Assembly: GCA_973851085.1 (NCBI GenBank)
Contig: OZ316775.1
Span: 12,338,001 to 12,402,000 of the forward strand
Length of the DNA: 64,000 nucleotides
Reading direction: 5' to 3'
Source: Ptychomitrium polyphyllum
Lineage: Eukaryota
Shown here: piece after piece, positions 2,144 to 46,851 of the stretch
Layout of the letters: each line of letters starts with the position of its first letter
Numbering within the stretch: the stretch's first letter is position 1
Position numbers and translations under genes: made by a program
The notes under the pieces: model-generated
Seen by the model: the letters and a program-made list of their open reading frames with translations, nothing else
Database searches by the model: none
Told to the model about the DNA's origin: nothing

Positions 2144-3843
2144 CTATATACCGGCGCTGGCAGCATATGAAGACAAGTCTTCTTTGTGCCTCTTGCTAAA
2201 AACCCCCATGACCCCTTTGTGTGTATTCACAACAGAGCGAAGATTCTTCCCAGTCATCTCTTGAAACACTCGACATGCCTCATCAACGCGTCCCTTTGTA
2301 TCAAGACCCTTAATCAACGCTGCATGAGCGATCGCGTCAGGGCTCAGACCCCGGTCTTCCATTTCCTGGAAAATGATAAACGCTTCGTCCACGTAGCCGG
2401 CCGTGCAAAGCCCTTCAATTAGACCATTGTATGTAAAATTATCCGGAACGTAACCATATTCCATCATTTTTGTGTATATGGACATGGCTTCCAAAGCTCT
2501 GGCACTCCAGACTAAAGAACGTATAACACACTTGAAAGTGAACGCATTGGGACTCCATCCATATTGCACCATTTGATTGAACGTTTCCACCACCCTGTCG
2601 GTATCGTTAGCCCGAGTAAATCCTAGCAAGAGAATGTTGAATGTCGAGGTGTTTGCTTGAAGACCTTGACGATGCATATCCTGCAAACACACAATCTCAA
2701 CTGAACATGATGTAGCAAACAGGGATAAAACACAATCACTGAAAAAAAAAATTAATTGGACCTCAGGTGAGAAGGTTGAAATATAAACAAAGGCGAGAGT
2801 AAGCGAGAAGCACTCACAACCACCACCTAATAAATCGAATATTTTCAGCACATACCGAGAATGGCCATCAAGTGTACATCAAAGAGTAGGATATGGTTTT
2901 AAGATATCTACCAAAAGAACTTAAAGCTCTCATAATTTCTCAATACAATGGCAGACAAGATATCCTTACGTGCGTTAACGTGCTCTTCAGTCTGTTTTCA
3001 ACACGCCAAAACAGAAACAAAACCATTCTAGAGAGTGCAATTAAGTTCAGCACTCTTGGTATTGGTTATGGGTACTTCTACCTCTCAGGTCATCGCAACC
3101 TCAGGACGGTTGTTTAAGAAAAGTAAGAATAAATTTAACAATGTAAGAGCAGTCTCCAACAAGTTTCGAAGCATCACACTTGGTTCGTCAATGGTTATTA
3201 AACCCTAAATTGTTTAGCCAGGTCACAAAGGCCGCATAACTATTGCGGAGAATCAGTCTAGATGGTGGGCAGAAGAGTTAACTCACCGAGCCAAGCAAAA
3301 AGATATCGAGATTGTGGTACGCGAGTGAGACGATACCTGGAGCAGCTGATTCTGCGTGTCGAATTTCTGGGCCGCACCCATGATCTCGATAATAGCATGA
3401 TAAGCTTGCAAGCTCTGGTGGAAGGAGGGCTGCTGTCTGGCCCATAGAAAGAAACAACGCGCCATGTCAGGGTCATCGAGTCCTCGGAGTATTCTGTTCA
3501 CGAGCTTGGATCGCAATCGTATGTTCAGCTTCTCCAACTCATTCACAGTGTCAATCCCCCACTCCCCCCTCTTGATTACTATACAAATCTTCTCCACGAA
3601 CTTCGCCTCTGCTGCTCTCAAATTCATCTGCCCATTCCTGACCACGGAATTAGTCCAACTGGCGTTCCCAGCGACAGCCTCCTCGCACTCGCGCCATCTC
3701 GTGATGTTGTGGAAACACGCATTGACCCATGACGGAGAACCGCATGCCGCCGCAGCTAAAACCCTCAAGTGGGTCGGAGGCGGTGGCGATGCGACGACTC
3801 TCTGCAGCAGATGGGAGAATGCTCGCCCCTGAGTTCTCCACAT
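2144..3843 (-). CDS. P-type pentatricopeptide repeat protein, 2 exons (3843-3337, 2680-2144), ~347 aa, probably mitochondrial
   Basis: Phase-0 GT-AG intron (CAG|GTATCG ... TTGCAG|GAT). Tandem ~35-aa PPR motifs (PNAFTFKCVIRSL, PDNFTYNGLIEGLCTAGYVDEAFIIFQEM, PDAIAHAALIKGL). The typical 'FFLWARQQPSF' segment precedes the repeats. The N-terminus is Arg-rich and lacks acidic residues. Confidence 0.9.
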
Positions 3844-4416
3844 CCTGTTACCGCTACCTCCCCAACGTTCCCTCTCCCCATAAAACTAATTCTCTCGAAT
3901 GTCCATCACACAAGTGCACTCCCAAGTGAGAAAATCGACAAACATGGACCACGGAAGATGAAAGCAAACTGAAAAGCAGAACATCATCACTAAAACCAAC
4001 GTTATTGTAACTAAATAATTTCATTATTATCCACTCTAAATGACATACGGTGCCAGGTGACCTTCGCGTATGACATCATGATGCTACGTACATGTGGAAG
4101 AATCTAAGAGTCGATGCGTTTGGTTCGGCTCGCTGCTGCAGCATCACGCCATTTCGATCGCTCATCAGAGCTCATCTTCTTGTTGGCAACCATCTACTGC
4201 TCGGTAGAGACATCTCTGATGCCCGTTTCGCAGGTGCTAGTGCATGTGGGTTTGTGACATTTTGGTTTTTGTTAGAGTTTTTCGTGGTTTGCAGACAATT
4301 GGGGTTTGAGGCGTTCTTTCTCATTTGGGTGGGCGTGGTTGTGTGATGCAGCGTGGTTTTGCGAGGGTTAGTTTGGTGGGAGAGGAGACGGGGGCTAATC
4401 GATTTCAGGGAGCAGG
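3844..4416. promoter_or_regulatory. Short divergent (probably bidirectional) promoter and 5' UTR region between the PPR and glutaredoxin genes
   Basis: The two ATGs face away from each other and are only 573 bp apart. Confidence 0.6.
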
Positions 4417-6183
4417 ATGTTGAGGACGGGCGGACGAGGGTTGTCGCAGTTGCTTCGAAGGGCTGTGGCAGCGGCACCGCCTGCAGCTCATGGTGGCCAG
4501 TTGAGGGTTTTAGCTGCGGCGGCGTCCACGGTTTCCTCTCTATCACGGCTCAATGCCAGTATGGCTCTCACTTCGATCGTGTTTCTCTTTTTGTTTGGAG
4601 TTTTCTTTGGAGATTTCATGATCGTATGTCATTTCAGGGAGTAGGAATGGTTCACGAGTGATGGCCTACTGCTGTGCTTGAAGGATGCTCTCAGCAAGCG
4701 TAGTTGTGGTGTTGGAGTTTGCTGGCATTCGGACTTTCCTACTCGCACCGAAACCTTAGGAATGATTGGTTCTAGCGTCTTCTTGACCATTTCCAATTCT
4801 TCAGAATTAGGGTATAAAAAAAGAGCGTTGGAATTGTTTGGGAAGGAGACGAACCCGGGTGATCTGGATGGCGTGTTTCTTGTGGAGTTCAATTTGATAG
4901 AGTAACAGTTTGTGAGATGTTGAACCGCCTTTGTTAATTTGCTGCATTTATTGTGCGGAAAGCGAATCTATTCATTGACATCGGAGTGTTTTCGGATTAG
5001 CAGTCCCATGGTTTCAACAGCTTGCTAGCATCACCATACCTGCTGGAGACGAAGCAGATTCGCATGACGACTTCAAGCCCGTCCAGAATCAAGCTTCTTC
5101 TGTCTCCTCCGCGCATGAGGCTATTGAGAAGGTATCCCACGTCATCCTGTAGCCGCCCCTCGCTTTTTATTCGGTGGTATTAAGCGGTGCTTATTGTTGC
5201 ACTTTTACAACTTGATTTTACTTCCCGATCCCTAAAAGATTGTAACGATCATAATGTGGGTCTCTGCTGTTGATGGTCACAGGATGTGAAGGAGAATCCA
5301 GTGATGGTTTACATGAAAGGGGTTCCTCAAGCGCCTCAGTGCGGATTTAGCGCCATGGTTGTTCGTATTTTGGAAGAATATGGTAAAGTATTCCACACTA
5401 TGCCAAGTAGATTGCTTTGAAAGTCAAGTTGATGTAACATGTATGATTTTGGACCGTCTGGAAGCATCAAGGTTATTTTATTGAAACTGCAGCTGTCAAG
5501 TTAGGTGTTTTGAGAGGTTGTTATATAATCTTGTCCTGTTGGAGAAATCAAGTAGGGATATTCTTAATTTGATGCTGATCTTTTAGTTTATCAGTAGAGC
5601 TGATTTACAAGGCACGTGCATGCTTAAAATACAGAGGTAGATTACCAGTCGAGAAATGTTTTAGCTGATCCGGAGCTCAGAACGGCCATCAAAGATTACA
5701 GGTACCTTGTTTTTGTATTGAGTGATAAATGGAGAATGGAACTTGTTTGCCCTTGTTGTTGATTGATTCGTCAGAGCTAGTTGATGAGCCTTATATTCTC
5801 TTTGAATCATAAGGTCAATTGCAAATACTTCGAGGAAGTCCTAGAAGCAAGGTCACTTACTCGTCAATGATTGTCAAAGTCAAATAGAACTGACTCGTGC
5901 TTTCTGAATGCAGCAAATGGCCAACTATTCCACAGGTTTATGTAAACGGCGAGTTTGTTGGAGGGTCCGACATTCTCATATCTATGCACCGGGTAACTCT
6001 ACCTTTGCGGTTATAATCTTTGCGTTGCTTGAGTACTATGCTATGTATGTGGATTACAGTGTCGAGCTCAAGCACAGTATCTGATTGACCGATTGAAATC
6101 CTGATTTACCTGTGCGGCAGTCAGGGGAGCTTGAGACACTATTGAAAGATGTGAAGAAGGTGGAGAGCCCATTCCTTTCCTAA
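4417..6183 (+). CDS. GRXS15: Monothiol (CGFS) glutaredoxin, mitochondrial GRXS15-like. Exons 4417-4558, 5001(or 5004)-5131, 5283-5382, 5635-5701, 5914-5992, 6121-6183; ~193 aa
   Basis: All introns are GT-AG with consistent phases. The spliced protein has [49 protein letters not shown] and SGEL, which match plant GRXS15. Confidence 0.93.
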
Positions 6184-10300: not shown

Positions 10301-11310
10301 TGACCTCAACAATACAAGCACGCAGCCTAGATAGAGCAATTTAGTGCAGTTTTACACAGAAACACAGTAAATCGTATATTCATTTACAGAATTCCAAAAA
10401 GCATCCCTGTTCTTTTCGAGTCATTACGATAGCTGTACTGTACATAATTTTTTTCCTTTCACATAAAACAATTTGTAGAAGGTCTACCAAAAACTCAGAT
10501 TTCGTAAAGATCTGTGTTGCGTGCCTAATCCTCTGATTGTACTTGGAAATTGGGATGATTTCGAGGATTAGAAAATAGCTCAAACAAACATAACACATCA
10601 TCGAATTTCATAATCAAACTGACACATCTGTTCTCATTAAATCTGATGTCAAACCCCTAAACAGCCAAAACTCAGCATACATGAAGATCGCCGCAATAAT
10701 ACACTCTCCTTCCAGATGGTCTAAAGTAACATTAGAGAGAGGCATCCTACAATGCAAGGGTCGCAAATCCCTATCCACTAAGATCCAATGTGATTAGCCC
10801 TGTATTTTTCTTCCTAAACACCCCCTTCACCAAACTTGAAACCCATTGCCATCAAGGTCGTTAAATTACATGATAGAGCAGCTCTCCAGGGGTCATCTGC
10901 ACAATACAAAACATGCAAATAAGATTATTATTCCCCGCAGTGATTTCCAAGGATTTTTCACGAGTGAAAAATAACACTACCACAACAACAAACTAATTAA
11001 TTAATTAAGCAGACTATCCATCTACATATTTACAAAGGGCCAAGATATCATGGAATAGGATACAACTCTCGGAACATTTTCCAAGACGAGAGTAACGGAG
11101 TGTGTTAAAAAGGTAAAGAATATTATCATACCTTAGAAAAGAGCTAGGATTACAATAGGCCTGCGAAAGAACTGAATCTTTAAGAAATCCTGCTTCGCAC
11201 ACATAGTGGACACTCTCCTGCCCGTATATCCACACAATACCTGGATATTCTAAAGCCGCGTTGTCTAATCTCAAATTTGTTATTCTATGCTTTCTTTACG
11301 TAAATTTTCT

Positions 11311-14300
11311 TCAGCTAGATTCGTCCATTGGTGCCTTTTCCTCCCCAAGGTCATTCGTAAGCTTTGAAAAACCAACTTCTTGACATTCATTAGAGCCACT
11401 AGATGTTGACACTGGTGGACCGGACTGAGCCATGCCACTTTCTTCGTTACATGAGAAAACCGATCTAGTATCTAGGTCTTCTGCAAGAACTTGACTGAGC
11501 TCCTTTAAGCCTGTGGCATGCTGCAGCCGCTTCCTCTGTATTATACCAACTCTCAGCTTACTAAGTTCCTTCTGTGATGAGCTTGACAAGTTCTGGGCTG
11601 GTCTAACTCGTTGCTCACCATTTGCCCCATTCCGCAATTGTGATCCAATCGATGAAGGAAGGTCATCACTCGTACTACCAGCTCCAGTCACATTGCCCTG
11701 CAAGTGCCCACCCAATGGGCTTTCTCTAACAGCTTCTGATGAAATGCCACTCTGTTGTTCAGTAGTATCAATGGTTCTTAAACCTGATCCATCCTGCAGA
11801 CTTGAGACAGGAATAGGTACCACAAGACCTTTGGGGAGTGGGAGTGAAGGTGCTGAGCCCATGTCACCACTAGTAACCATGCCTGGCTGTATCTCTTCGA
11901 CCATATTCAATTGAGCAGTTTGTGAAGCCCAGTTACCTTGTGGCACACCTCCTTGATTCCAGGCGGTATGGCCGTTCGTCTGTCCTGCGAGACTATTGTG
12001 TGGGGGACCAACATGATTACTATCAATGCTGGGTGCCACTTGAACAGGATTAAGCTGAGGTTGCATTTTGTGAAACAGCAAATGCGCGATAGACCGATCA
12101 ATAGGATTTGTCTGTGTTTCCACCCCATTCATGTCCATTCTGCAAACAGTAGACCATAGCACATCAGAAAACGACGGATCACTGTCCACATGCCTACCAA
12201 TTACGATTCAACGCTTCACATTCAACTAAGACATTAAAAATAAAATACTTTGGAGCTAATGCACAAATATATGTGGAACCGGAACGCAGCAGTCTATACC
12301 TAGAAACTCTGCTGGACGATGAGGGGTCACTGCTTATAGAAGCTTCAAGGCCAGATGATGTCGCGTCTGCGTCCTGAGAAACTTGAGAGCAATCGGCACC
12401 ATCATCACCAGTTGATCGTCCAGTTAAAGCTTGCCTTCTCATAGCGCTCCTCGCCAATCGATACAAGGCATCCCTTATACCCAATCTCGTTCCCAATTCC
12501 AACTGCTGAGACCAAGAAAACCATGTCAAGTAATACCCATGTACGACTCTACTAGTACGAACTGTTTACCACAGCACTCTCTGTAGATTACATAAGAATA
12601 AATGCACGATATCAGGAAAAAATGTAAATAGAATATATAGGCATAATGAAAGACTGAAGATTGATCATCCCAAGAAACATTCCTCCCAACTGGTCAAGGG
12701 TGGCACACATACCGTCTTTATGGTAATCTGGAGCTGATCCAAAACCGCAGCTTCCAATGAACCACCTTCATCATCAGACGTGACTTCTACACTGGTCTGA
12801 CCAACTGAAAGAGATGGCTCGTAATCACTGTCTGATAATGGTATCTTTGTTTCACTAGGCTTCACGTCTACATCCAACTCTTTTACAGCTATATTCTGCG
12901 GCGCAGGTATAACCCCCTTCCTCAAGCCACTGGTATCCAGTGAAGCAATCCCGTGAGCAGCAAACTGTTGTTGCTGCTGCTCAACTGCATAACGTGCCTG
13001 CATCTGCTGCAGAAACTTCAGCTTCTCAATTTTCTCCTGTGGAGTCATAATTGGAGTACTAGGTTGCGGAAGAGCTTGAACCTCTCCAGGCGGCTGAAGT
13101 TGATGTTGCTGATAAGGTGCCAAAGGTTGTGGAAAAGCACAGGGCTGTTGATACCCCACATACAAACCTTGTCCTTGCATCTGGCCAGAGACAGAAGCTG
13201 GTGCAACCTGTGAGATGACATGCAGAGGAGGACTATACCCAACGTGCACATAAGGAGGCACAGGCCGAATCATTGGCTGCAGGGGTAATAGAGTTGGAGC
13301 GTTCACTGGAAAACCATGCGTATTAGGAGTAGATGGCTGATGAAGATGCGCTCTCTGTGCCGGGATTTGCAACGGCATCGAATGGAGCACCTGCAGAGCC
13401 TGTGGACCCCCGTAGGCAGCAGCGTGAAAAATCTTCCGATGGTTAAGTTGTCGCTTAGTTCGTTCTTCAGATCTTTTCCGGTTCACAGCATGCCGTCGCG
13501 CTCTGTGAGCCTGACACAACCAAGTTCATATGCTTTCAGAGGAAAAAACCACAAGAGAGAAGTAGGAAAAAAAGCTACACGTGCTAGTGTCGATCCAGAG
13601 ATAATGGAATTACAAAGAGGTGAGGTAGCCTCTCAAACTGTTACAATCTATACAACACATACCAGTTTCATTAAGTGAAAGGATAGAATCTAAACATCCA
13701 TGGTGAATGCTAGGAATAGTCCATAAACATCTGAACCGTACATACAACATCCACATACCTGAGCCATTTTGACTTTCTCCGAATCAGAGACGCCGACAGA
13801 AGATGGACCCGATTCGTCTTCCGTAACATCCTTTCCTACTGACGGATTGTCAGTACTTTCAGACGTAGGCACGCTTCCAGTGAGAGCCTCCATCATCTAA
13901 AAGAACACCACCATGAAATTGCATGCATGTGTTATTAAATAGTTGCAGACTGGCCAAAATCCTTCAGCAGCTTTCCACTCACCAATAAATGGACTCCACT
14001 GGGTTCAGAATCTATCTGAGGTCAAGATACATTCTGCAAAAGGGATTATTGATAATGCTTCAAAAGATACAACCGGATACAGGTAGTACCAAAGAGGCCT
14101 ACCTGAAATACTGGATATCATGGCTACTTCAAAGAGTCCCTGGCACTGACCTCCAAAGACCGAAAAACTACTTGAAACCTGACCGACACATAAAATCTGA
14201 TAAAAAGTCACAACCAAACGTAACTTCCGGGGTTCATGCACTAACAGCCCTCAACAAAAAATAGATGGTAATCCCACATGTTCACCGAACAAACAGCTAA

Positions 14301-15156
14301 TAGAATGTCGATGACTATAAGAAAATAAACAGTAGAAGTACCTTCTCGTCATCTAAATAATCGCTTGAATTGATCTGGCCCCCAGATAGCAGATCAGACT
14401 GTTGCTCGGCTTGTACGCTGTCAAAACTGGCTGGAGCTTGAAACTCTGCCTCTTGAAAGGTTGCATTATGATCGCTCCCTCCACATGATATAGGTAGAGA
14501 AGCGTTTAGGGAAACAAACTTCGGGTCAAAGAAGTCTATTTTTCCGTTCCTGAGTGACCCAGTGTTTATGACTGACGACGACTTCGTCCCAGATAACTCA
14601 CTCTCCGACTGCAGGTCGAGAGGAGATGTTGAACCGTCCCACTGCAAAGTCGCAGGGCTGAATGTCGACCGCCCAAAAGCAGAATCCGGATCAGAGCTGT
14701 AATCAAGTAAAACTATAAGCAACTCTTAAAAAAGTTCTCAACCAAACTCCAGCTAAGAAGATGCAACCAACACGTCATAGCACACTAAACGTATTCAAAT
14801 CTCGAAGAAAGTGATATCAGTTCAAATCCGTTTACAAGTTCCATAATGAACACTTACTTCATTTAACGCTAAACCAGAACGCATGTTCTTCTAATTATCC
14901 GGAGGATGAGATTTTACCTGAGCAAATTATCAACGTCTTCCAAACTACCAAAGCAGTTATCCCAGCTGTAGTCTCCTTTAACATCACCACCATCACCTCC
15001 TCCGAACAACGACAAGCCGCTTTCCTCGGGGTCAACATCACACAGCGAGAAGTGACAACTAGTTGTAACTATGCTGGAATTATCCTCCGAAAACAGGGCA
15101 TCAGCCATGTACGCCCCCAAACCACCACCGCCTAGAATTGGCGAGTCGACCTTCAT
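11311..15156 (-). CDS. LNK: LNK (night light-inducible and clock-regulated) family protein. Exons 15156(start uncertain; acceptor at 15185)-14918, 14696-14342, 13896-13759, 13510-12713, 12502-12300, 12139-11311; ~853 aa
   Basis: GT-AG introns with consistent phases join the ORF-track fragments. LNK signature motifs are present: W..FGSLEDVDNLL.S.D.AFG, SLEAAVLDQLQ...LELGTRLGIRDALYRLARSA, ETQTNPIDRSIAHLLFH. Q-rich middle region. Confidence 0.85.
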
Positions 15157-16576
15157 ATCGTCCTCTTCAGAATAGCTATGTCTAACTGCAAGACCCAACA
15201 CAATGCGGCACATTTAGGTACATTTATACATTCAGAGTTATCCTCCAACCCGTCACGTATCCAAATGCACCATTGAAACCGAGACACTATTTACAGGTGT
15301 TTCAAGGTGCTGACAGCCAGGAAATTATGCAATATTGAGACCATTTGCTTTGCAAGCGTCCTTGAACTTGGCCATATGCTGAGCGCTACTGAACTTTTAC
15401 ACATCCAGTTTACGTCACTTTCGAAATCGACAATAGTTTCCTAAACTGCCTTCACAGCCTGACGAAGTATAGATACATAAATGAAAGATACGACTAGAAA
15501 AAGGAAGCTCTGACCACACACCTGCCAAAGAATTCGCATCTTCTACACTCCGTCCACCACCAGGAGCACCTCCTGAAACTTATGATCTTGCATCCACATA
15601 TGCCAGTAGAGGTGCTTGCTATCCACGAAACGGTTCCCAAACCAGCTGCACGCCAGATACCATCGACAGCTCAGGCCCGCCTCTCTTAAAAAGATTGGAC
15701 CTCCGGTAAACACACTTTCACTTTTACCAAGCGGAAAACGCCTTCAAACTCGGTGTCACGATCATCTACAGCTTGTTGAGCCTAGCCATCTCACACGCAC
15801 AAAAGAACTACGACTCCCGTCTATCATCTCCAATTTCTACGTAAATGCGCTTCTCATAAGCAACCTCAAACGGAGAAGCGCTCGCCACTTGTCCTCCGAC
15901 TCCTAAACTCCTCACACCACCTGCAACCACCAAAAACTCCTCAGGCCGCACCCCTCGAATTCAGAAACAAAAGAATAACAGGTCACATGCAACCGCTGCA
16001 AGTCACGCCTCCCCGAAGACGATGAAAACCAAACTCGCGCGATGCAGGAACAAGATCAACACCACTAATAACCTCCAGAAACATACGAAGCCAAGAATGA
16101 AGTCATTACCGCCCGTCAAGCAAAACTCTAGATCTGACGAAATTTCAAAATGGAGACTCAAGAATTAGGAGCTCGGCGATTGAATCCACGTCTCCTACCT
16201 CGAACAGTGTCCACACGCGCCGCTTAGAGCTACGTGAAGTCCCTCGGACCGCTGCCGCTTCGAAACTCTCTCCGACCTTCCTTCCCCCTGTGAAAGCTTG
16301 CAGACAGAGTGCATTAGGGTTCAGAGAGACAATGGAGAGTAATGAGGCCTGACAATGCGGCGGACGATAAAGGCAAAGCGCAGAGAGCGGCCGTGGAGCA
16401 GCGCGCTCGGAAGGGGAACCCCAGGCCCTGATGGCGATGGCGTCGAGCGGGACAGCTAGCTAGCAGCGTTGCGGAGGATACGAGAACCACAAACCGGGGC
16501 GCCCAAGCCACAGCCTCTCACTTCGCCACTCCCAGGCAGGGCCAGGCCAGAGCCAACAGCGCTGGACGAACGTCAT

Positions 16577-25680: not shown

Positions 25681-27532
25681 ATTTTATTAATCCAATATAT
25701 TTTTTAATTTTGAGATTGTTGACGTGAGCCATTTGATTGAAATGATACCATTAGCATGGTATCTGCACGTTAACTATACATATCTAATATACTAAACTAC
25801 TATCGAGGACTTATAATAAACTCAAAATACAAAAGACTAGATTTTATATCATATATTTGACTAAAAAACTTATGTTTTAGGAATTTTTTTTTCTTTTGCT
25901 TAAAAGCCCAAGAATCAAGAATCTTCATGCTTATGCAATTTTTCTATGCCACTATTTTTTGTGTAGCTTTTTTTAATTTGGCTAGAATTGTTGATGGAAC
26001 TCACAAATAATTATTGGAAAATTGGCAAGATCATTAAATGGCTCTTAGGTGTGTTCACCAATATCATATTTCCGCCAGTGGACCAAACATTCCAACTTTC
26101 CACATCTTATTTATGAATCAAACACTTATTCTACTTCAAATTCAAGATGATTGTCAATTTGAGCGTTTATTAGGTGGTAATTGTCTTTGTCTAATGGTAG
26201 TTAATTTGTTGTAGGCTTCTCAAAGTGAAAAATGGAAGATTAAATGTACCTATATTGATGCTGTCACGGACATAGATCATGCAACATAGTCCTTAGAACA
26301 TTCTAGAACCTTCTAGTATACTATAATAGCTTCTTAGAATACTTTTAAATGTTTCCATAGCCTTTCAATGTTTTTAGGAGGCTTCCTAGGAAAGTTCCTC
26401 TACTTTAAAAAACTTCCTAGGAAGGCTCTATCACCTTAAGTAACTTCCTACAAAACTTCCTACAAAGATTCCATCACCTTAAGAAATTTTCTAAGAAGGT
26501 TCTACATCTTCAGGAAACTTCCTAAGAAGATTCCGCTACCTTAGAAAACTTCCAAGGAAGGTTCCAACTCCTTGGAAGCTTCTCAGGAAGGTTCCAACCT
26601 CTTAGGAAACTTCTTGAGAAGGTTCCCTAGACTTCCAGAACATTCCTAAGCCTTGTAGGAAGCTTCTTTAGAAGTATCCTAAGGAGATACAAACGTCATA
26701 GTATAAATAGGAGGCAAGACAAGCTATTCCTTAGTCTTGCCAACACAAGTTGTGGATCATCTTGAATCCTGCCTTGTTCTAGTTTTGTATCAAATTCTTG
26801 TTAATCATTAGCTCTTTAGAAGCTAATTCTTGGAAAACACTTCGTTTCTGCTTCTTGTTTCATATGTCCCTAACAGTTTGGTAAGACTACTGTTCATCTC
26901 TGTCAGAGCTAAGGTTCTTTGAAGAAGATTGTGGATTACCCATCTTCTATAGGATTCCATAATGTCTTAGAGGTTGCGGATTATCCTCCTCTAAGCTGGC
27001 ACCATAGAGTTGGTTTCTCCTTCTAAAACCAAGTATTACTTCTTTCAAAGCACGTGGATTTTTCTCCTTTGAAGGTACTCATACTCTTTCTGTCTTTGAG
27101 AGTCTTAAAAAATGGATAACGTGCCTGAAACATCAGAGAATAGGTTTGCAACTATTGCAGAGCTTCAAGAATTATGATACATAGTTCAAACAGAACTCGC
27201 CCGTTTTAATACCACCAACAATTTGGAGCAACACACTCGGCAAGCTGAAGAATCCAATGGTGATATTCAAAGCCTATATCAAGAGGTTGTTCGATTGCGA
27301 GAGGCCAATATTGGAAGGGAAGGCTTACGTCAAACCCATGCAGAGCCAAAGATTAGCATGCCAGACGAGTATAATGGATCAAGATCAAAATTGAGAGGCT
27401 TTGTTCAACAAGTAAGGCTCTTCCTTAATTTGCATCAATCTTGCTATCCTGATGGGACAATTCAAGTGGGATTTGTGGCCACTCTTTTATCAAACAATGC
27501 ACTATTGTGGTTTGCACCACTAAAGCAGAAGC

Positions 27533-28677
27533 TGTCGCGCACCTCTCATTGAAGAATGCCCACAACACTAAGGACACAAAGAGGACCTTAGAGTGACGTC
27601 TGGAACTTGTGGCGCTGATAATGAGGGGAACCAAGTGGGCCTAGTGTGAGAAAAATCACTAGAAGGAGAAACATCCTAGCCCATGTAGACCAAGGGCCAC
27701 AAGGAATAAATCATAGGCATTGGAGGAATCACAAAGAGCTGATTCTAGAATGCTAAAGATTGCTCAAATCAAACAAGGGAGCTAAAAGTTATGGCATCCC
27801 AAAGTTGGGGCTGCCAAGGGGCTCTTCTGGACTGTGGCAGCCCTACATAGTGACTGTACTAGACTAGGACAGCCCAGGGAGAGACTCCCCGGGAGTCCCT
27901 AACCTTGGAAGAGGCATATCTCCCACAATACAAACTCAAATCGGACGTTTGAGGAGTCTATCGACATCTCCTTGAGGAATAGACGACAATAGAATGGTTT
28001 CTTGATAGATTCAAGAACCGAACATGGAAGATATGGCTCCCTGAAGGTCCGCAAGGAGTTACGGAGGCTTCCAACGGCTAAGTCCCAAGGGAGATCGGGT
28101 GGTGCTCTAAAACTTTGGGTGTGTCGAGGTTCAGCTAGCTACGGAGGGTCAGGGGGCCTGCCAAATCCTACAAAGAGTACTATACGGGAGGGCTGGTCCC
28201 CCTCCCCACTCCCCTAGTGTCCCTGTAAAAACCAAGAGTGAGTCCCGGTTGGTGCAGCTAGTATTGGGGCTTCACCACGGGGACTCCCACACCATTGTGA
28301 GCCGGTGGATGGCCGGTTTCACGGAAGGAACTAGTGAGATCAAGAGGGCATGCTTATTACCACTAAGTTGGGGTGGTGTCTTCACGTTGGCTCTATGTTG
28401 GCTCGAGGTGATCTTAGGATCACATGGGGATCATGAGTGGTGGTGAGGAGACACCACTACGTGCGGTTAGGCTGTGTGGAATGGGAATAACACCAAGTGA
28501 GGCTTTGGACATGAATGGAAGTCTACACCTAAACATTGGCTATCAATCAATTGGATGTCCTAAGAGAAATGGTAGAGGGACTTGGAGAGTGAGAAGGGGG
28601 GTTAACCATGTGCATGTGGGGGTGTACAGGGTTGATATGCGTGACGCTTGCTAAGGTGCATTGCAAGGGTTGCGACA
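27533..28677 (+). mobile_element. Family B solo LTR (1145 bp) inserted in gag of A1
   Basis: TGTCGCG...TGCGACA termini. 5-bp TSD GAAGC at 27528-27532 and 28678-28682. Confidence 0.95.
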
Positions 28678-31600
28678 GAAGCAGTCACCATTATTGAACA
28701 ACTTAGATGCTTTTATAGAAGCATTGACATCTACTTTTGGAGACACCGACCGAGAGAGGGTGGCTGAGACAAGGATCTAGGGTCTCCAACAATGGCAGCG
28801 CTCAGCTGCTACATATGCTGCAGAGTTTCGACAATTAGCTTGCGACCTTGATTGGAATGATAAAGCCTTGGTCACACGATTCCGATGGAGCTTAAGAGAG
28901 AACGTAAAGGACTTGCTACTCACAAAGCCAAGAATTGAAACATTGGACGAATTCATCACTCAAGCAATAGCATGTGACGACAGACTATTTGAGAGGCGCC
29001 AAGAACAACGCTTGGAATGGCGACCAGTACATCAAAACATGGCTACCACTTCTTCAAGAATATTGGAAAATCGACCACAAGAACCAGAACCTATGCAAAT
29101 TGATGCTGCCCAGTTTAGACGTTTGACTCCAAAAGAAAAGAAAAGGCGTCAAAGAGAAAACCTATGTTTGTATTGTGGCAAGTCTGGACATAAAATGCGC
29201 AATTGCCAAATCAAAAGATTTGCCTTCAAGGCTCAAAGCACAATGGTGGAGTTGGAAAACAAGGCTGTCTAGTCACAGTAGGGACCATGCAACTAGACAC
29301 CATAAGGAAACGACCATCAAATCAAGGTCTCTTTCTACCTTCAAACCCTACCTCTTGTTTTATATTTCCTATCAAAATTAAGTTATTAGATGATGAAATA
29401 ATTAGTGAGGCTCTTTTAGACATTGGTGCAACAATATGTTTCATGGACAAGGATTTTGCAACCAAACATCACATGGTGCTTATGAACAAAAAATATCCCA
29501 CACTTGTTGAAGTTATTGATGAATGATCTCTTGCGTCTGGCAAACGTTATTGAAGAAGCTCAACTCCAAGAGGTTGTTTTAGGAGGTCAGGCATCTAAGA
29601 TTGTCTTCAACATCATTAAATGCCAAACAAATCCTATTGTTTTTGGCCTTCTTTGGTTTAAATTACATAGTCCAGACATTGACTGGCGCTCACAAAGTGT
29701 GGTCTCAAAGAAAAGACGTCAAAATACAAGAAATCTTGGGCCATCATTTATTGGAGCTAAGGCATTTATGAGAGCGGCAAAAGATGAACCAATCTATGCC
29801 GTTTATGCCACACTAATGTCTAGCTCTACAATAGAGACTAATCAAAACATACCTCGTCAATATCAAGATTATAAAGACCTTTTTGAAAAGAAGAATGCGG
29901 ACATGTTACCAAAGCACCGGCCTTACAATTGTACCATTGAGTTGCAAGAAGGAGCCCAACCACCCTTTGGACCTATTTATAACTTATCACAAACTGAGTT
30001 GGCTGCCTTGAGAGAATATATTGATGAAAACCTTGGAAAGGGTTTCATTCAATACTCTAAATCACCTGCTGGAGTACCCATTCTATTTGTAAAGAAGAAA
30101 GATGGATCATTACGTATGTGCGTGGACTATCAAGGCCTCAATAAAGTAACAAAAAAGAATCGCTATCCATTACCATTAATCTCAGGACTCCTACAACAAC
30201 TTGGCCAAGCAAAGATAATCACCAAAATTGATGTTAGAGGATCCTACAATCTTGTATGCATCAAAGAAAGAGACGAATGGAAGTCAATTTTTTGATCTCG
30301 ATATGGTCATTTTGAATACAATGTCATGCCTTTTGGCCTAACTGATGCTCCCGCAATCTTCCAACATATGATGAATGATATCTTCCATGAATATCTGAAC
30401 GAATTTATAGTCATCTACTTAGATGACATTCTGATATATTCAAAGGATGAACAAGACCACGAATGTCATGTGCAAATGGTCTTAGAGAAACTACACCATC
30501 GAGGATTATATGTAAGATTGGAGAAGTGCCTTTTTTTTGAATCCGCGGTTGAATTTTTAGGCTACATCATTTCCAAATGAGGAATCCATATGGATAAGAA
30601 AAAAATAAGCACTGTCACGAAGTGGAGTACGCCAAAATCAATTCGAGATGTTCAATGCTTCTTGGGATTTGCAAATTTCTATAGAATATTCATCAAGAAT
30701 TATTCCAAGATTGCGGCACCATTAACACGTCTTACGGGGAAGCAAAATTTCATTTGGAATGAAGAGGCGGAAAAAGCATTTCAAAGTCTTAAGAAGTCAT
30801 TCACGTCGGCTCCAATTCTAATTCATCCAAATCCATCAAAGCCTTTTTATTTGGAAGCGGATGCCTCAGATTTTGCGCTTGGCTCAATACTCTCACAATA
30901 TGATCAAGATGAGAAACTTCACCTTCTTGCCTTTCGTTCAAGGAAGTTTTATTTGGCAGATATCAACTATGATATACATGATAAAGAACCACCTGCAATT
31001 GTGGATGCGTTCGAAGAATGGCCACACTTATTGGAAGGAGCTCAACATACCATCACAATATACACAGACCACAAAAACTTGGAGTATTTCATGAGTGCGC
31101 GCGTTTTGAATCGCCGTCAAGCAAGGTAGAGTATGTTGCTTTCCAAATTTGACTTTGTCATTACCTATCGATCTGGTAGCTTGCAAGGTATGCCAGATGC
31201 CTTATTTTGAAGATCTTATTTAGCTCTTCAATCTGGAGATGATGTTTTTGTTTCAAATATAAAGAAGTGCCTCAAACACAATGGAGGTCTTTCAAATAAC
31301 GATGAGGATTTTGAATTTCAAGAGGGCCTACTTTATTATAAAAGACTTTTGTACCTACCTCCGGGCCTTTTGCGGTTGAAGATCCTTCAAGCACGTCATG
31401 ATTTTCCCGCAGCAGGATATTTTGGATTCAATAAAACAATGGAATTGATTGCTAGAGACTATTGGTGGCCACAAATGTGGAAGTACGTGAAGGACTTTAT
31501 TCGATTATGCGACACTTGTGCAAGAGCCAAGGTACCAAGGCACCAACCTCATGGTCTCCTCCATCCGCTTCCAGTGCCAAGGGGCGCATGGTTGTCTTTA

Positions 31601-42907: not shown

Positions 42908-45900
42908 TTGTTCATCCTTTGAATATATCAGAATGTCATCTAAGTAGATGACTATAAATTCGTTCAGATATTCATGGAAGATATCATTCATCATATGTTG
43001 GAAGACTGCGGGAGCATCAGTTAGGCCAAAAGGCATGACATTGTATTCAAAATGACCATATCGAGATCAAAAAATTGACTTCCATTCGTCTCTTTCTTTG
43101 ATGCATACAAGATTGTAGGATCCTCTAACATCAATTTTGGTGATTATCTTTGCTTGGCCAAGTTGTTGTAGGAGTCCTGAGATTAATGGTAATGGATAGC
43201 GATTCTTTTTTGTTACTTTATTGAGGCCTTGATAGTCCACGCACATATGTAATGATCCATCTTTCTTCTTTACAAATAGAATGGGTACTCCAGCAGGTGA
43301 TTTAGAGTATTGAATGAAACCCTTTCCAAGGTTTTCATCAATATATTCTCTCAAGGCAGCCAACTCAGTTTGTGATAAGTTATAAATAGGTCCAAAGGGT
43401 GGTTGGGCTCCTTCTTGCAACTCAATGGTACAATTGTAAGGCCGGTGCTTTGGTAACATGTCCGCATTCTTCTTTTCAAAAAGGTCTTTATAATCTTGAT
43501 ATTGACGAGGTATGTTTTGATTAGTCTCTATTGTAGAGCTAGACATTAGTGTGGCATAAACGGCATAGATTGGTTCATCTTTTGCCGCTCTCATAAATGC
43601 CTTAGCTCCAATAAATGATGGCCCAAGATTTCTTGTATTTTGACGTCTTTTCTTTGAGACCACACTTTGTGAGCGCCAGTCAATGTCTGGACTATGTAAT
43701 TTAAACCAAAGAAGGCCAAAAACAATAGGATTTGTTTGGCATTTAATGATGTTGAAGACAATCTTAGATGCCTGACCTCCTAAAACAACCTCTTGGAGTT
43801 GAGCTTCTTCAATAACGTTTGCCAGACGCAAGAGATCATTCATCAATAACTTCAACAAGTGTGGGATATTTTTTGTTCATAAGCACCATGTGATGTTTGG
43901 TTGCAAAATCCTTGTCCATGAAACATATTGTTGCACCAATGTCTAAAAGAGCCTCACTAATTATTTCATCATCTAATAACTTAATTTTGATAGGAAATAT
44001 AAAACAAGAGGTAGGGTTTGAAGGTAGAAAGAGACCTTGATTTGATGGTCGTTTCCTTATGGTGTCTAGTTGCATGGTCCCTACTGTGACTAGACAGCCT
44101 TGTTTTCCAACTCCACCATTGTGCTTTGAGCCTTGAAGGCAAATCTTTTGATTTGGCAATTGCGCATTTTATGTCCAGACTTGCCACAATACAAACATAG
44201 GTTTTCTCTTTGACGCCTTTTCTTTTCTTTTGGAGTCAAACGTCTAAACTGGGCAGCATCAATTTGCATAGGTTCTGGTTCTTGTGGTCGATTTTCCAAT
44301 ATTCTTGAAGAAGTGGTAGCCATGTTTTGATGTACTGGTCGCCATTCCAAGCGTTGTTCTTGGCGCCTCTCAAATAGTCTGTCGTCACATGCTATTGCTT
44401 GAGTGATGAATTCGTCCAATGTTTCAATTCTTGGCTTTGTGAGTAGCAAGTCCTTTACGTTCTCTCTTAAGCTCCATCGGAATCGTGTGACCAAGGCTTT
44501 ATCATTCCAATCAAGGTCGCAAGCTAATTGTCGAAACTCTGCAGCATATGTAGCAGCTGAGCGCTGCCGTTGTTGGAGACCCTAGATCCTTGTCTCAGCC
44601 ACCCTCTCTCGGTCGGTGTCTCCAAAAGTAGATGTCAATGCTTCTATAAAAGCATCTAAGTTGTTCAATAATGGTGACTGCTTCTGTCGCAACCCTTGCA
44701 ATGCACCTTAGCAAGCGTCACGCATATCAACCCTGTACACCCCCACATGCACATGGTTAACCCCCCTTCTCACTCTCCAAGTCCCTCTACCATTTCTCTT
44801 AGGACAACCAATTGATTGATAGCCAATGTTTAGGTGTAGACTTCCATTCATGTCCAAAGCCTCACTTGGTGTTATTCCCATTCCACACAGCCTAACCGCA
44901 CGTAGTGGTGTCTCCTCACCACCACTCATGATCCCCATGTGATCCTAAGATCACCTCGAGCCAACATAGAGCCAACGTGAAGACACCACCCCAACTTAGT
45001 GGTAATAAGCATGCCCTCTTGATCTCACTAGTTCCTTCCGTGAAACCGGCCATCCACCGGCTCACAATGGTGTGGGAGTCCCCGTGGTGAAGCCCCAATA
45101 CTAGCTGCACCAACCGGGACTCACTCTTGGTTTTTACAGGGACACTAGGGGAGTGGGGAGGGGGACCAGCCCTCCCGTATAGTACTCTTTGTAGGATTTG
45201 GCAGGCCCCCTGACCCTCCGTAGCTAGCTGAACCTCGACACACCCAAAGTTTTAGAGCACCACCCGATCTCCCTTGGGACTTAGCCGTTGGAAGCCTCCG
45301 TAACTCCTTGCGGACCTTCAGGGAGCCATATCTTCCATGTTCGGTTCTTGAATCTATCAAGAAACCATTCTATTGTCGTCTATTCCTCAAGGAGATGTCG
45401 ATAGACTCCTCAAACGTCCGATTTGAGTTTGTATTGTGGGAGATATGCCTCTTCCAAGGTTAGGGACTCCCGGGGAGTCTCTCCCTGGGCTGTCCTAGTC
45501 TAGTACAGTCACTATGTAGGGCTGCCACAGTCCAGAAGAGCCCCTTGGCAGCCCCAACTTTGGGATGCCATAACTTTTAGCTCCCTTGTTTGATTTGAGC
45601 AATCTTTAGCATTCTAGAATCAGCTCTTTGTGATTCCTCCAATGCCTATGATTTATTCCTTGTGGCCCTTGGTCTACATGGGCTAGGATGTTTCTCCTTC
45701 TAGTGATTTTTCTCACACTAGGCCCACTTGGTTCCCCTCATTATCAGCGCCACAAGTTCCAGACGTCACTCTAAGGTCCTCTTTGTGTCCTTAGTGTTGT
45801 GGGCATTCTTCAATGAGAGGTGCGCGACAGCTTCTGCTTTAGTGGTGCAAACCACAATAGTGCATTGTTTGATAAAAGAGTGGCCACAAATCCCACTTGA

Positions 45901-46851
45901 ATTGTCCCATCAGGATAGCAAGATTGATGCAAATTAAGGAAGAGCCTTACTTGTTGAACAAAGCCTCTCAATTTTGATCTTGATCCATTATACTCGTCTG
46001 GCATGCTAATCTTTGGCTCTGCATGGGTTTGACGTAAGCCTTCCCTTCCAATATTGGCCTCTCGCAATCGAACAACCTCTTGATATAGGCTTTGAATATC
46101 ACCATTGGATTCTTCAGCTTGCCGAGTGTGTTGCTCCAAATTGTTGGTGGTATTAAAACGGGCGAGTTCTGTTTGAACTATGTATCATAATTCTTGAAGC
46201 TCTGCAATAGTTGCAAACCTATTCTCTGATGTTTCAGGCACGTTATCCATTTTTTAAGACTCTCAAAGACAGAAAGAGTATGAGTACCTTCAAAGGAGAA
46301 AAATCCACGTGCTTTGAAAGAAGTAATACTTGGTTTTAGAAGGAGAAACCAACTCTATGGTGCCAGCTTAGAGGAGGATAATCCGCAACCTCTAAGACAT
46401 TATGGAATCCTATAGAAGATGGGTAATCCACAATCTTCTTCAAAGAACCTTAGCTCTGACAGAGATGAACAGTAGTCTTACCAAACTGTTAGGGACATAT
46501 GAAACAAGAAGCAGAAACGAAGTGTTTTCCAAGAATTAGCTTCTAAAGAGCTAATGATTAACAAGAATTTGATACAAAACTAGAACAAGGCAGGATTCAA
46601 GATGATCCACAACTTGTGTTGGCAAGACTAAGGAATAGCTTGTCTTGCCTCCTATTTATACTATGACGTTTGTATCTCCTTAGGATACTTCTAAAGAAGC
46701 TTCCTACAAGGCTTAGGAATGTTCTGGAAGTCTAGGGAACCTTCTCAAGAAGTTTCCTAAGATGTTGGAACCTTCCTGATGAGCTATTATAATATATTAG
46801 AAGATTCTAGAATGTACTAGGGATTATGTTGCATGATTTATGTCCGTCACA
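42908..46851 (-). mobile_element. Family A copy A1': inverted near-identical duplicate of 26583-30454, including the B solo LTR (44685-45829); LTR outer end at 46851
   Basis: Matching ORF coordinates all sum to 73362 and the translations are nearly identical. Confidence 0.95.

What the first reader, a model, noticed from the sequence alone, without database searches (positions are those of the whole stretch)
3720..4558. Head-to-head PPR and glutaredoxin genes share an inverted-duplicated 5' UTR and mitochondrial presequence
Seen in sequence: two unrelated proteins begin [33 protein letters not shown] and [36 protein letters not shown]. There is an exact 23-nt inverted match, TTGAGGGTTTTAGCTGCGGCGGC (3746-3768 minus; 4501-4523 plus). 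Both ATGs lie in CAGGATG. Similarity extends into the non-coding 5' region: TTTCTCAcTTGGG..TTGTGTGATG vs TTTCTCAtTTGGG..TTGTGTGATG, and TTAGTTTtatgGGGAGAGG vs TTAGTTTggtGGGAGAGG. Inference: one gene gained its leader and targeting peptide through a local inverted duplication of its neighbour's first exon. That would create a co-regulated, co-imported pair (RNA maturation and Fe-S assembly), and the two mRNA 5' ends would be homologous.
Basis: partly seen in the sequence, partly recalled or inferred. Interest (0 to 1): 0.85.

Follow-up and report, generated by a model that had tools for sequence, protein, structure and literature searches.

The report
Neighbouring moss genes share copied leader
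In this moss two unrelated genes that sit back to back, an RNA-binding PPR protein and an iron-sulfur glutaredoxin, begin with mirror-image copies of the same ~220 bases, and relatives including Ceratodon carry it too, so an old local copying event likely swapped one gene's predicted mitochondrial address tag for its neighbour's.

Summary
A P-class PPR gene (minus strand, ATG 3843) and a CGFS glutaredoxin of the GRXS15 type (plus strand, ATG 4417) share an inverted homologous block, 3719-3933 against 4317-4556: about 90 bases upstream of the ATG plus the first 42-47 codons, about 75% identical, far above shuffles. It ends at the glutaredoxin's first intron. Single contigs of two related mosses span both genes, and the block is also on PPR and glutaredoxin proteins of other mosses, including the annotated Ceratodon purpureus PPR. 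So it is old, and arms group by gene, not by species. The Physcomitrium PPR orthologue and the Sphagnum and Riccia glutaredoxins have their own, unalike N-terminal extensions, so this is likely a replacement of one presequence by another, not a first gain of targeting. Direction is not settled (I lean glutaredoxin to PPR). The 23-base exact match may be a later small gene-conversion tract. Import, transcript ends and co-regulation are untested. It is a new variant of a known process, presequence copying between plant genes, here with donor and recipient still side by side.

The parts
2144..2680 (-). PPR gene exon 2 (P-type repeats, stop at 2144-2146)
   Evidence: Pfam PPR, PPR_1, PPR_2, PPR_3 above cut-off; 155 of 176 residues identical to Ceratodon P0014, 154 of 177 to P. 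patens P0001
3337..3843 (-). PPR gene exon 1 (ATG at 3843); intron 2681-3336
   Evidence: GT-AG ends; spliced frame of 347 aa with a single terminal stop; orthologues P0001, P0005, P0010/P0014
3719..3933 (-). left arm of the inverted block: ~90 nt upstream of the PPR ATG plus the first ~42 codons (predicted presequence)
   Evidence: 93 of 125 coding and 65 of 87 upstream columns identical to the right arm; shuffles
3746..3768 (-). exact 23-nt match, PPR copy (codons for LRVLAAA)
   Evidence: longest-run permutation P 0.0095 in the coding part
3934..4316 (.). spacer between the arms, likely holding the promoter(s) of both genes; no significant mirror symmetry
   Evidence: 3948-4080 is conserved in the most distant laid relative X6
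4317..4556 (+). right arm of the inverted block: ~100 nt upstream of the glutaredoxin ATG plus coding exon 1 up to its donor site (4558|GT)
4501..4523 (+). exact 23-nt match, glutaredoxin copy; base 4502 differs in relatives X4 and X6 (Ser instead of Leu)
4417..6183 (+). GRXS15-type monothiol glutaredoxin gene, coding exons 4417-4558, 5001-5131, 5283-5382, 5635-5701, 5914-5992, 6121-6183
   Evidence: GT-AG ends, 193 aa, CGFS/TIPQ/GGSD present; mature part 128 of 138 identical to P0007, 95 of 135 to the Sphagnum-type P0015, 97 of 139 to Riccia P0006; Pfam Glutaredoxin

Best explanation
The two genes share an inverted ~220-base block because an old copying event, likely repair of a break using the neighbouring gene as template, likely pasted the glutaredoxin's 5' end (about 90 upstream bases and coding exon 1) in frame over the 5' end of the adjacent PPR gene, which would have replaced one predicted mitochondrial presequence with another. 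Shown: the homology, its limits, its presence on both genes in several mosses, and the head-to-head order in two relatives. Inferred: the repair mechanism, the direction (about 55-60% glutaredoxin to PPR), that the peptide is a cleaved mitochondrial presequence, and that the swap survived because presequences are largely interchangeable. Since then the arms have mostly drifted apart on their own, with perhaps a short later conversion tract over the 23 identical bases.
For: Homology far above shuffles and above other presequences. No further significant copy in the 64-kb window, so the copy is local here. One contig each of X4 and X6 spans both genes in the same order. A profile of four N-termini run over 1.84 billion proteins gave 6 hits: 2 glutaredoxin-type exon-1 read-throughs (P0008, P0009), 1 PPR (P0010), 1 unassigned block carrier (P0013) and 2 unrelated repeats. 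P0010 clusters with Ceratodon purpureus KC19_1G020500, which begins MWRTALSQLLQR and keeps the GQ that the window PPR lost. The three PPR arms form one group in a tree of 8 block sequences (bootstrap 72). All 4 listed PPR-arm differences shared by X4 and X6 restore the glutaredoxin base. For the direction: the block stops at the glutaredoxin's first donor site, an intron also present at about the same place and phase in the Sphagnum-type loci; more divergent forms of the block are on the glutaredoxin side (P0007 53%, and P0013 57% if it is one); the glutaredoxin set shows a faint likeness to the L004 glutaredoxin N-terminus (30-54 of 1000 shuffles).
Against: The direction signal is weak and two-sided. 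The PPR set resembles the P. patens PPR N-terminus about as faintly (14 of 1000 by profile; 12-65 of 1000), and RVL..AACS...SA in that protein is collinear with the 3' half of the block. The glutaredoxin profile does not recognise the Sphagnum, L004 or Riccia glutaredoxin N-termini (135, 233, 373 of 1000). The tree is short and unrooted with low support. The P. patens glutaredoxin sequence and locus could not be fetched. No target-site scar or junction signature was found that would show the repair mechanism.
Confidence: 0.5

Rival explanations
1. Same local inverted copy, opposite direction: a glutaredoxin gene (perhaps a duplicate, since relatives hold a second GRXS15-like copy) took the PPR's 5' end and presequence, and the copied sequence supplied or ran up to the first donor site.
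For: The P. patens PPR N-terminus is collinear with the 3' half of the block and scores 14 of 1000 against the PPR profile but 160 of 1000 against the glutaredoxin profile. Outgroup glutaredoxins lack a recognisable block. A second glutaredoxin-like contig appears in X3, X4 and X6, and L004 shows a moss-like glutaredoxin with another N-terminus.
Against: The 5' half of the P. patens PPR N-terminus does not match and has about 17 extra residues; an unrelated control (L002) scored 46 of 1000 against the same profile; the end of the block at the glutaredoxin exon boundary fits a whole-exon copy.
Confidence: 0.35
2. Add-on, not exclusive: the two arms are still homogenised from time to time by short gene conversions, which the inverted, closely spaced layout would favour.
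For: Longest identical run 23 nt: P 0.0095 in the coding part and 0.017 in the whole alignment, 20,000 permutations each. All 7 third codon positions inside the run are identical against 22 of 39 overall. Glutaredoxin codon 29 is Ser in X4, X6, P0008 and P0009 but Leu in the window, matching all three PPR arms. Non-coding columns are as alike as coding ones (65 of 87 against 93 of 125) despite the age. The region folds back as one strand (z -7.2, 0 of 20 shuffles), which only restates the repeat.
Against: Arms group by gene, not species. The 4 PPR-arm sites above show free drift. The run was picked after the fact and covers a likely cleavage-site region under selection. Codon 29 is a single C-to-T change. 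The exact match is broken in X4 (3748, 4502) and X6 (4502), and only 40 of 96 differences were displayed.
Confidence: 0.35
3. Both genes drew the block from a third source, a dispersed repeat, mobile element or another gene's leader, and adjacency is secondary.
For: P0013 carries the block with mixed PPR-like and glutaredoxin-like residues and cannot be assigned to a gene. A transposon-derived 5' UTR is described for rice rpl6 (PMC2631504, passages).
Against: No other significant copy in the window; only 4 true carriers among 1.84 billion representatives; P0013 ends like the glutaredoxin exon-1 read-throughs; two independent insertions head to head are unparsimonious. No whole genome was available to count copies.
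Confidence: 0.1
4. Chance or convergence of Arg/Ala/Leu-rich presequences.
For: Presequences share composition.
Against: 0 of 2000 protein shuffles and 0 of 1000 DNA shuffles reach the score; the homology includes non-coding bases and synonymous sites; other presequences score at shuffle level.
Confidence: 0.01

Closest known systems
Presequence acquisition by copying an existing targeting signal (rice rps11-1 from atp2, Arabidopsis sdh3 from hsp70, carrot rps10 from hsp22)
   Same: Two unrelated mitochondrial proteins carry homologous N-terminal presequences because DNA was copied from one gene to the other (as stated in passages of PMC2631504; similar cases in passages of PMC4045975, and PMC8317393; the original EMBO J 1996 paper was not held).
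   Different: Those recipients are genes newly moved from the mitochondrion that needed a presequence. Here both are nuclear genes whose outgroup orthologues have other extensions, the copy includes ~90 upstream bases, and donor and recipient are immediate head-to-head neighbours.
Shared presequence by alternative splicing (rps14 inside sdhB/sdh2 in rice and maize)
   Same: One targeting sequence serves two different mitochondrial proteins (passage and reference in PMC2631504).
   Different: There one exon is physically shared; here there are two diverged copies on opposite strands.
GRXS15 (Arabidopsis At3g15660), mitochondrial monothiol glutaredoxin
   Same: Single CGFS glutaredoxin domain behind an N-terminal extension; listed with the mitochondrial ISC machinery in passages of PMC3721309.
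   Different: The name is assigned by motif and by likeness to Riccia and Sphagnum proteins, not by a tree with the Arabidopsis protein; the presequence is moss-specific.
PpPPR_11 (Pp3c3_2440) of Physcomitrium patens, a lead only
   Same: Table 1 of PMC9459714 (section 5 read) lists it as five P motifs, predicted 'other', seen in mitochondria, stabilising nad7 mRNA (marked unpublished). The orthologue P0001 has about five P motifs, a longer 485-aa model (P0002) with a non-presequence start, and lies on a 25,566,168-base record that I recall as chromosome 3.
   Different: No call links accession XP_024369648.1/BBU25487.1 to that name (0 papers hold the accessions); the match rests on recall and elimination, about 60%.

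Membership tests
P-class PPR protein | tandem P-type PPR motifs | tested here: met
   Pfam PPR, PPR_1, PPR_2, PPR_3 above cut-off in exon 2
P-class PPR protein | no E/DYW extension | tested here: met
   no such Pfam family among the 9 hits; protein ends shortly after the repeats
P-class PPR protein | organellar location and RNA binding | not testable with these tools
   only composition of the N-terminus (4 basic, 0 acidic in 35 residues)
GRXS15/Grx5-type monothiol glutaredoxin | single glutaredoxin domain with CGFS site, TxPQ and GGxD motifs (motif set recalled) | tested here: met
GRXS15/Grx5-type monothiol glutaredoxin | mitochondrial import through a cleaved presequence | not testable with these tools
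   5 basic, 0 acidic in 35 residues; hydrophobic moment 0.87; no targeting predictor or experiment run
Presequence copied from an existing gene (rps11/atp2 type) | homologous presequence-coding DNA on unrelated genes | tested here: met
Presequence copied from an existing gene (rps11/atp2 type) | recipient is a gene recently moved from the mitochondrion, lacking its own presequence | tested here: not met
   both genes are intron-bearing nuclear genes whose outgroup orthologues have their own extensions
Presequence copied from an existing gene (rps11/atp2 type) | the copied peptide drives import | not testable with these tools
   needs GFP fusion or import assay
Bidirectional gene pair | divergent genes with 5' ends under about 1 kb apart (criterion recalled) | tested here: met
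   ATGs 574 bases apart; same order on single contigs of X4 and X6
Bidirectional gene pair | shared promoter and correlated expression | not testable with these tools
   no transcript data obtained; recalled site II, telo-box, TATA and G-box motifs are absent from 3844-4416
Transposon-derived leader (terminal inverted repeats, dispersed copies) | further dispersed copies | tested here: inconclusive
   none significant in the 64-kb window; the genome was not available

The most novel reading that the evidence does not exclude
A head-to-head gene pair in mosses forms a long-lived inverted repeat whose arms are the working 5' ends of two unrelated mitochondrial genes; one leader overwrote the other before Ceratodon and this lineage split, and the arms still exchange short tracts, so the translation start context and import signal of an RNA-stabilising PPR protein and the mitochondrial iron-sulfur glutaredoxin evolve partly in concert.
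Probability: 0.25. Interest if true: 0.7.

Novelty: new variant of a known kind. Interest (0 to 1): 0.5.

Why it matters
How plant proteins gain and change their targeting peptides is usually inferred from scattered copies whose origin is lost. Here the likely template sits 574 bases away in mirror orientation, both copies are intact, and the pair can be followed across many moss genomes. That makes it a clean natural case for testing neighbour-templated replacement of a presequence, the interchangeability of presequences over long times, and short gene conversion between unrelated genes. Ceratodon, and possibly Physcomitrium as the contrasting state, are laboratory mosses, so the tests are practical. 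No new biochemical function is implied.

Tried and rejected
No whole genome is held, so copy number outside the window was not counted. No RNA holder was listed among 7 runs, so transcript ends, 5' UTR introns and expression were not examined. A metagenome scan for PPR relatives matched 433 stretches and confirmed none. Word-index protein searches gave few relatives: 1 of 844, 2 of 634 and 2 of 23 candidates. The P. patens and Ceratodon full-length glutaredoxins were not obtained; 3 forms of the L004 protein were not in the collection, so its organism is unknown. An eye-catching GGQLR and AAS.SSL.R.N likeness between the window glutaredoxin and the Sphagnum-type exon 1 did not pass shuffles (P 0.09; 135 of 1000; 171-404 of 1000), so I do not count it. 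The distal upstream alignment 3934-4000 was dropped as not significant. No PPR match lies in the 4 Sphagnum-type genomic loci, which hold 4.1-5.9 kb upstream of the ATG; these may be another paralogue, so this is weak. The Atlas search only returned generic PPR clusters. My first guess of glutaredoxin exon 2 limits was wrong and was corrected. Literature: no paper held all six terms for a head-to-head inverted duplication of a targeting sequence; the listings showed no title or abstract start on this locus; most subscription journals are not covered, and no supplement of PMC3858427 could be read, which may bear on the PpPPR_11 match. Earlier findings of this scan: none in three look-ups. No structure or complex prediction was run, as it would not bear on the question.
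Full report
Observation. The quoted translations, the CAGGATG contexts and the exact 23-nt inverted match are in the sequence. A local alignment of the minus strand 3719-4000 with the plus strand 4246-4556 has 201 identities in 269 aligned columns. None of 1000 dinucleotide shuffles reached the coding score and 1 of 1000 reached the score of the 200 upstream bases. Split further, the proximal ~90-100 upstream bases are significant (0 of 2000), whereas the distal part (325 of 2000), the inner spacer (1856 of 2000) and the sequence beyond the glutaredoxin's first donor site (909 of 2000) are not. The block is thus 3719-3933 against 4317-4556, with 93 of 125 coding and 65 of 87 upstream columns identical; codon positions 1, 2 and 3 are 33 of 41, 34 of 40 and 22 of 39 identical, the pattern of coding sequence under selection. 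The 64-kb window holds no further significant copy.

The genes. The minus-strand gene has two coding exons (3843-3337, 2680-2144) with a GT-AG intron and gives 347 aa with P-type PPR repeats and no DYW domain. The plus-strand gene has six coding exons with GT-AG introns and gives 193 aa with a CGFS site, a GRXS15-type glutaredoxin by motif and likeness to Riccia and Sphagnum proteins. The closest named relatives of the PPR are from Ceratodon purpureus and Physcomitrium patens, at nearly equal distance (exon 2: 155 of 176 and 154 of 177; exon 1 core: 71 and 68 of 91), so the window is from a moss distant from both (inference). Both ATGs are the first in-frame ATG of their open frames. Both N-termini have 4-5 basic and no acidic residues in 35 and an amphipathic start, which fits mitochondrial presequences; no predictor or experiment was run.

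Spread and age. Of 4 laid runs from three related organisms, one contig of X4 and one of X6 span both genes in the same head-to-head order; X3 and X5 cover both genes in pieces. A profile of four block-bearing N-termini gave 6 hits among 1.84 billion representatives: P0008 and P0009 (glutaredoxin-type exon 1 read into the intron), P0010 (PPR), P0013 (unassigned), and two unrelated repetitive proteins that I dropped. P0005 with P0008, and P0009 with P0010, are recorded on contigs of equal length (7,861 and 7,297 bases), so each pair is probably one locus (inference). P0010 clusters with the annotated Ceratodon protein KC19_1G020500, which starts MWRTALSQLLQRVVVASPPPPTHAGQLRGLAA. The block therefore predates the split of Ceratodon from this lineage (an age of some 200 million years is recalled, not computed). 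P0005 and the Ceratodon PPR keep residues shared with the glutaredoxin (GGR, SQLL, GQ) that the window PPR has lost, and all 4 listed PPR-arm differences shared by X4 and X6 restore the glutaredoxin base (40 of 96 differences were displayed). In a tree of the 8 block sequences the three PPR arms group together (bootstrap 72, other nodes 43-72): one old event followed mostly by independent drift.

Gain or replacement. The P. patens PPR orthologue and the glutaredoxins of Riccia, the Sphagnum-type loci and L004 have their own basic N-terminal extensions, none clearly matching the block. Both genes therefore likely had presequences already, and one was overwritten in frame.

Direction. For glutaredoxin as donor: the block ends at its first donor site, an intron also seen at about the same place and phase in the Sphagnum-type loci; more divergent block forms lie on the glutaredoxin side; the glutaredoxin set faintly resembles L004 (30-54 of 1000 shuffles). 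For PPR as donor: the P. patens PPR is collinear with the 3' half of the block and scores 14 of 1000 against the PPR profile (12-65 of 1000), but 160 of 1000 against the glutaredoxin profile. With ten or more tests per scoring neither signal is firm. I lean glutaredoxin to PPR at 55-60%.

Mechanism. A short inverted copy beside its template is what break repair or template switching on the neighbouring gene would leave (established knowledge, recalled; not shown here). An in-frame swap between two mitochondrial proteins would be close to neutral, which explains survival without any need for co-regulation. The 23-nt run is longer than expected from the alignment's own identity (P 0.0095 and 0.017), all 7 third positions in it agree, and glutaredoxin codon 29 is Leu like the PPR only in the window, Ser in X4, X6, P0008 and P0009. 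This hints at a later short conversion, but the run was chosen after the fact, selection near a cleavage site could do the same, and codon 29 is one transition; about 35%.

Known and new. Copying of presequences between unrelated plant genes is known for genes moved from the mitochondrion (passages of PMC2631504, PMC4045975, PMC8317393), and exon shuffling is discussed for plastid transit peptides (passages of PMC7456531). This case works like those but fails one defining feature, a recipient newly arrived without a presequence, and adds adjacency in mirror orientation, copied upstream bases and long retention. The searches showed no paper on this locus; most subscription journals are outside the library. 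Verdict: real, old, a new variant of a known process; co-import, co-regulation and homologous transcript ends remain untested. Interest 0.5.

Noticed in passing
window 3906(-) and 4346(+): The shared TTGTGTGATG holds an upstream ATG in both arms: a 6-codon frame ending before the PPR start, and a frame 4346-4423 that overlaps the glutaredoxin start out of frame. CAG|GATG could also be a splice acceptor; donor-like and acceptor-like sites lie at 4048 and 3969 on the PPR strand.
   Followed up: partly
runs X3, X4, X6 at window 5292-6159: Extra contigs match only the conserved glutaredoxin exons with other intron sequence, suggesting a second GRXS15-like paralogue or another organism in the runs.
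   Followed up: no
protein P0013: A 77-aa unnamed frame carries the block with a mix of PPR-like (W2, SWVN) and glutaredoxin-like (GGRGLS, HGGQ) residues; gene and organism unknown.
   Followed up: partly
window 4402-4417 and 4631-4646: A 16-nt near-perfect direct repeat of the pre-ATG sequence recurs in glutaredoxin intron 1, followed by an ATG; E 0.72 in the window, probably chance.
   Followed up: partly
window about 26,000-62,500: A nest of gypsy-like LTR retrotransposon pieces (gag, protease, reverse transcriptase, integrase, chromodomain), with a 3,878-base inverted pair 99.8% identical at 26577-30454 and 42908-46785: very recent or an assembly artefact.
   Followed up: partly
window about 10,800-16,400, minus strand: A multi-exon gene whose two longest frames (298 and 286 aa) have no Pfam match.
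   Followed up: no
window about 645-730 and 2106-2122: A tandem duplication of about 44 bases, and a short telomere-like TTTAGGG run just past the PPR stop codon (read).
   Followed up: no
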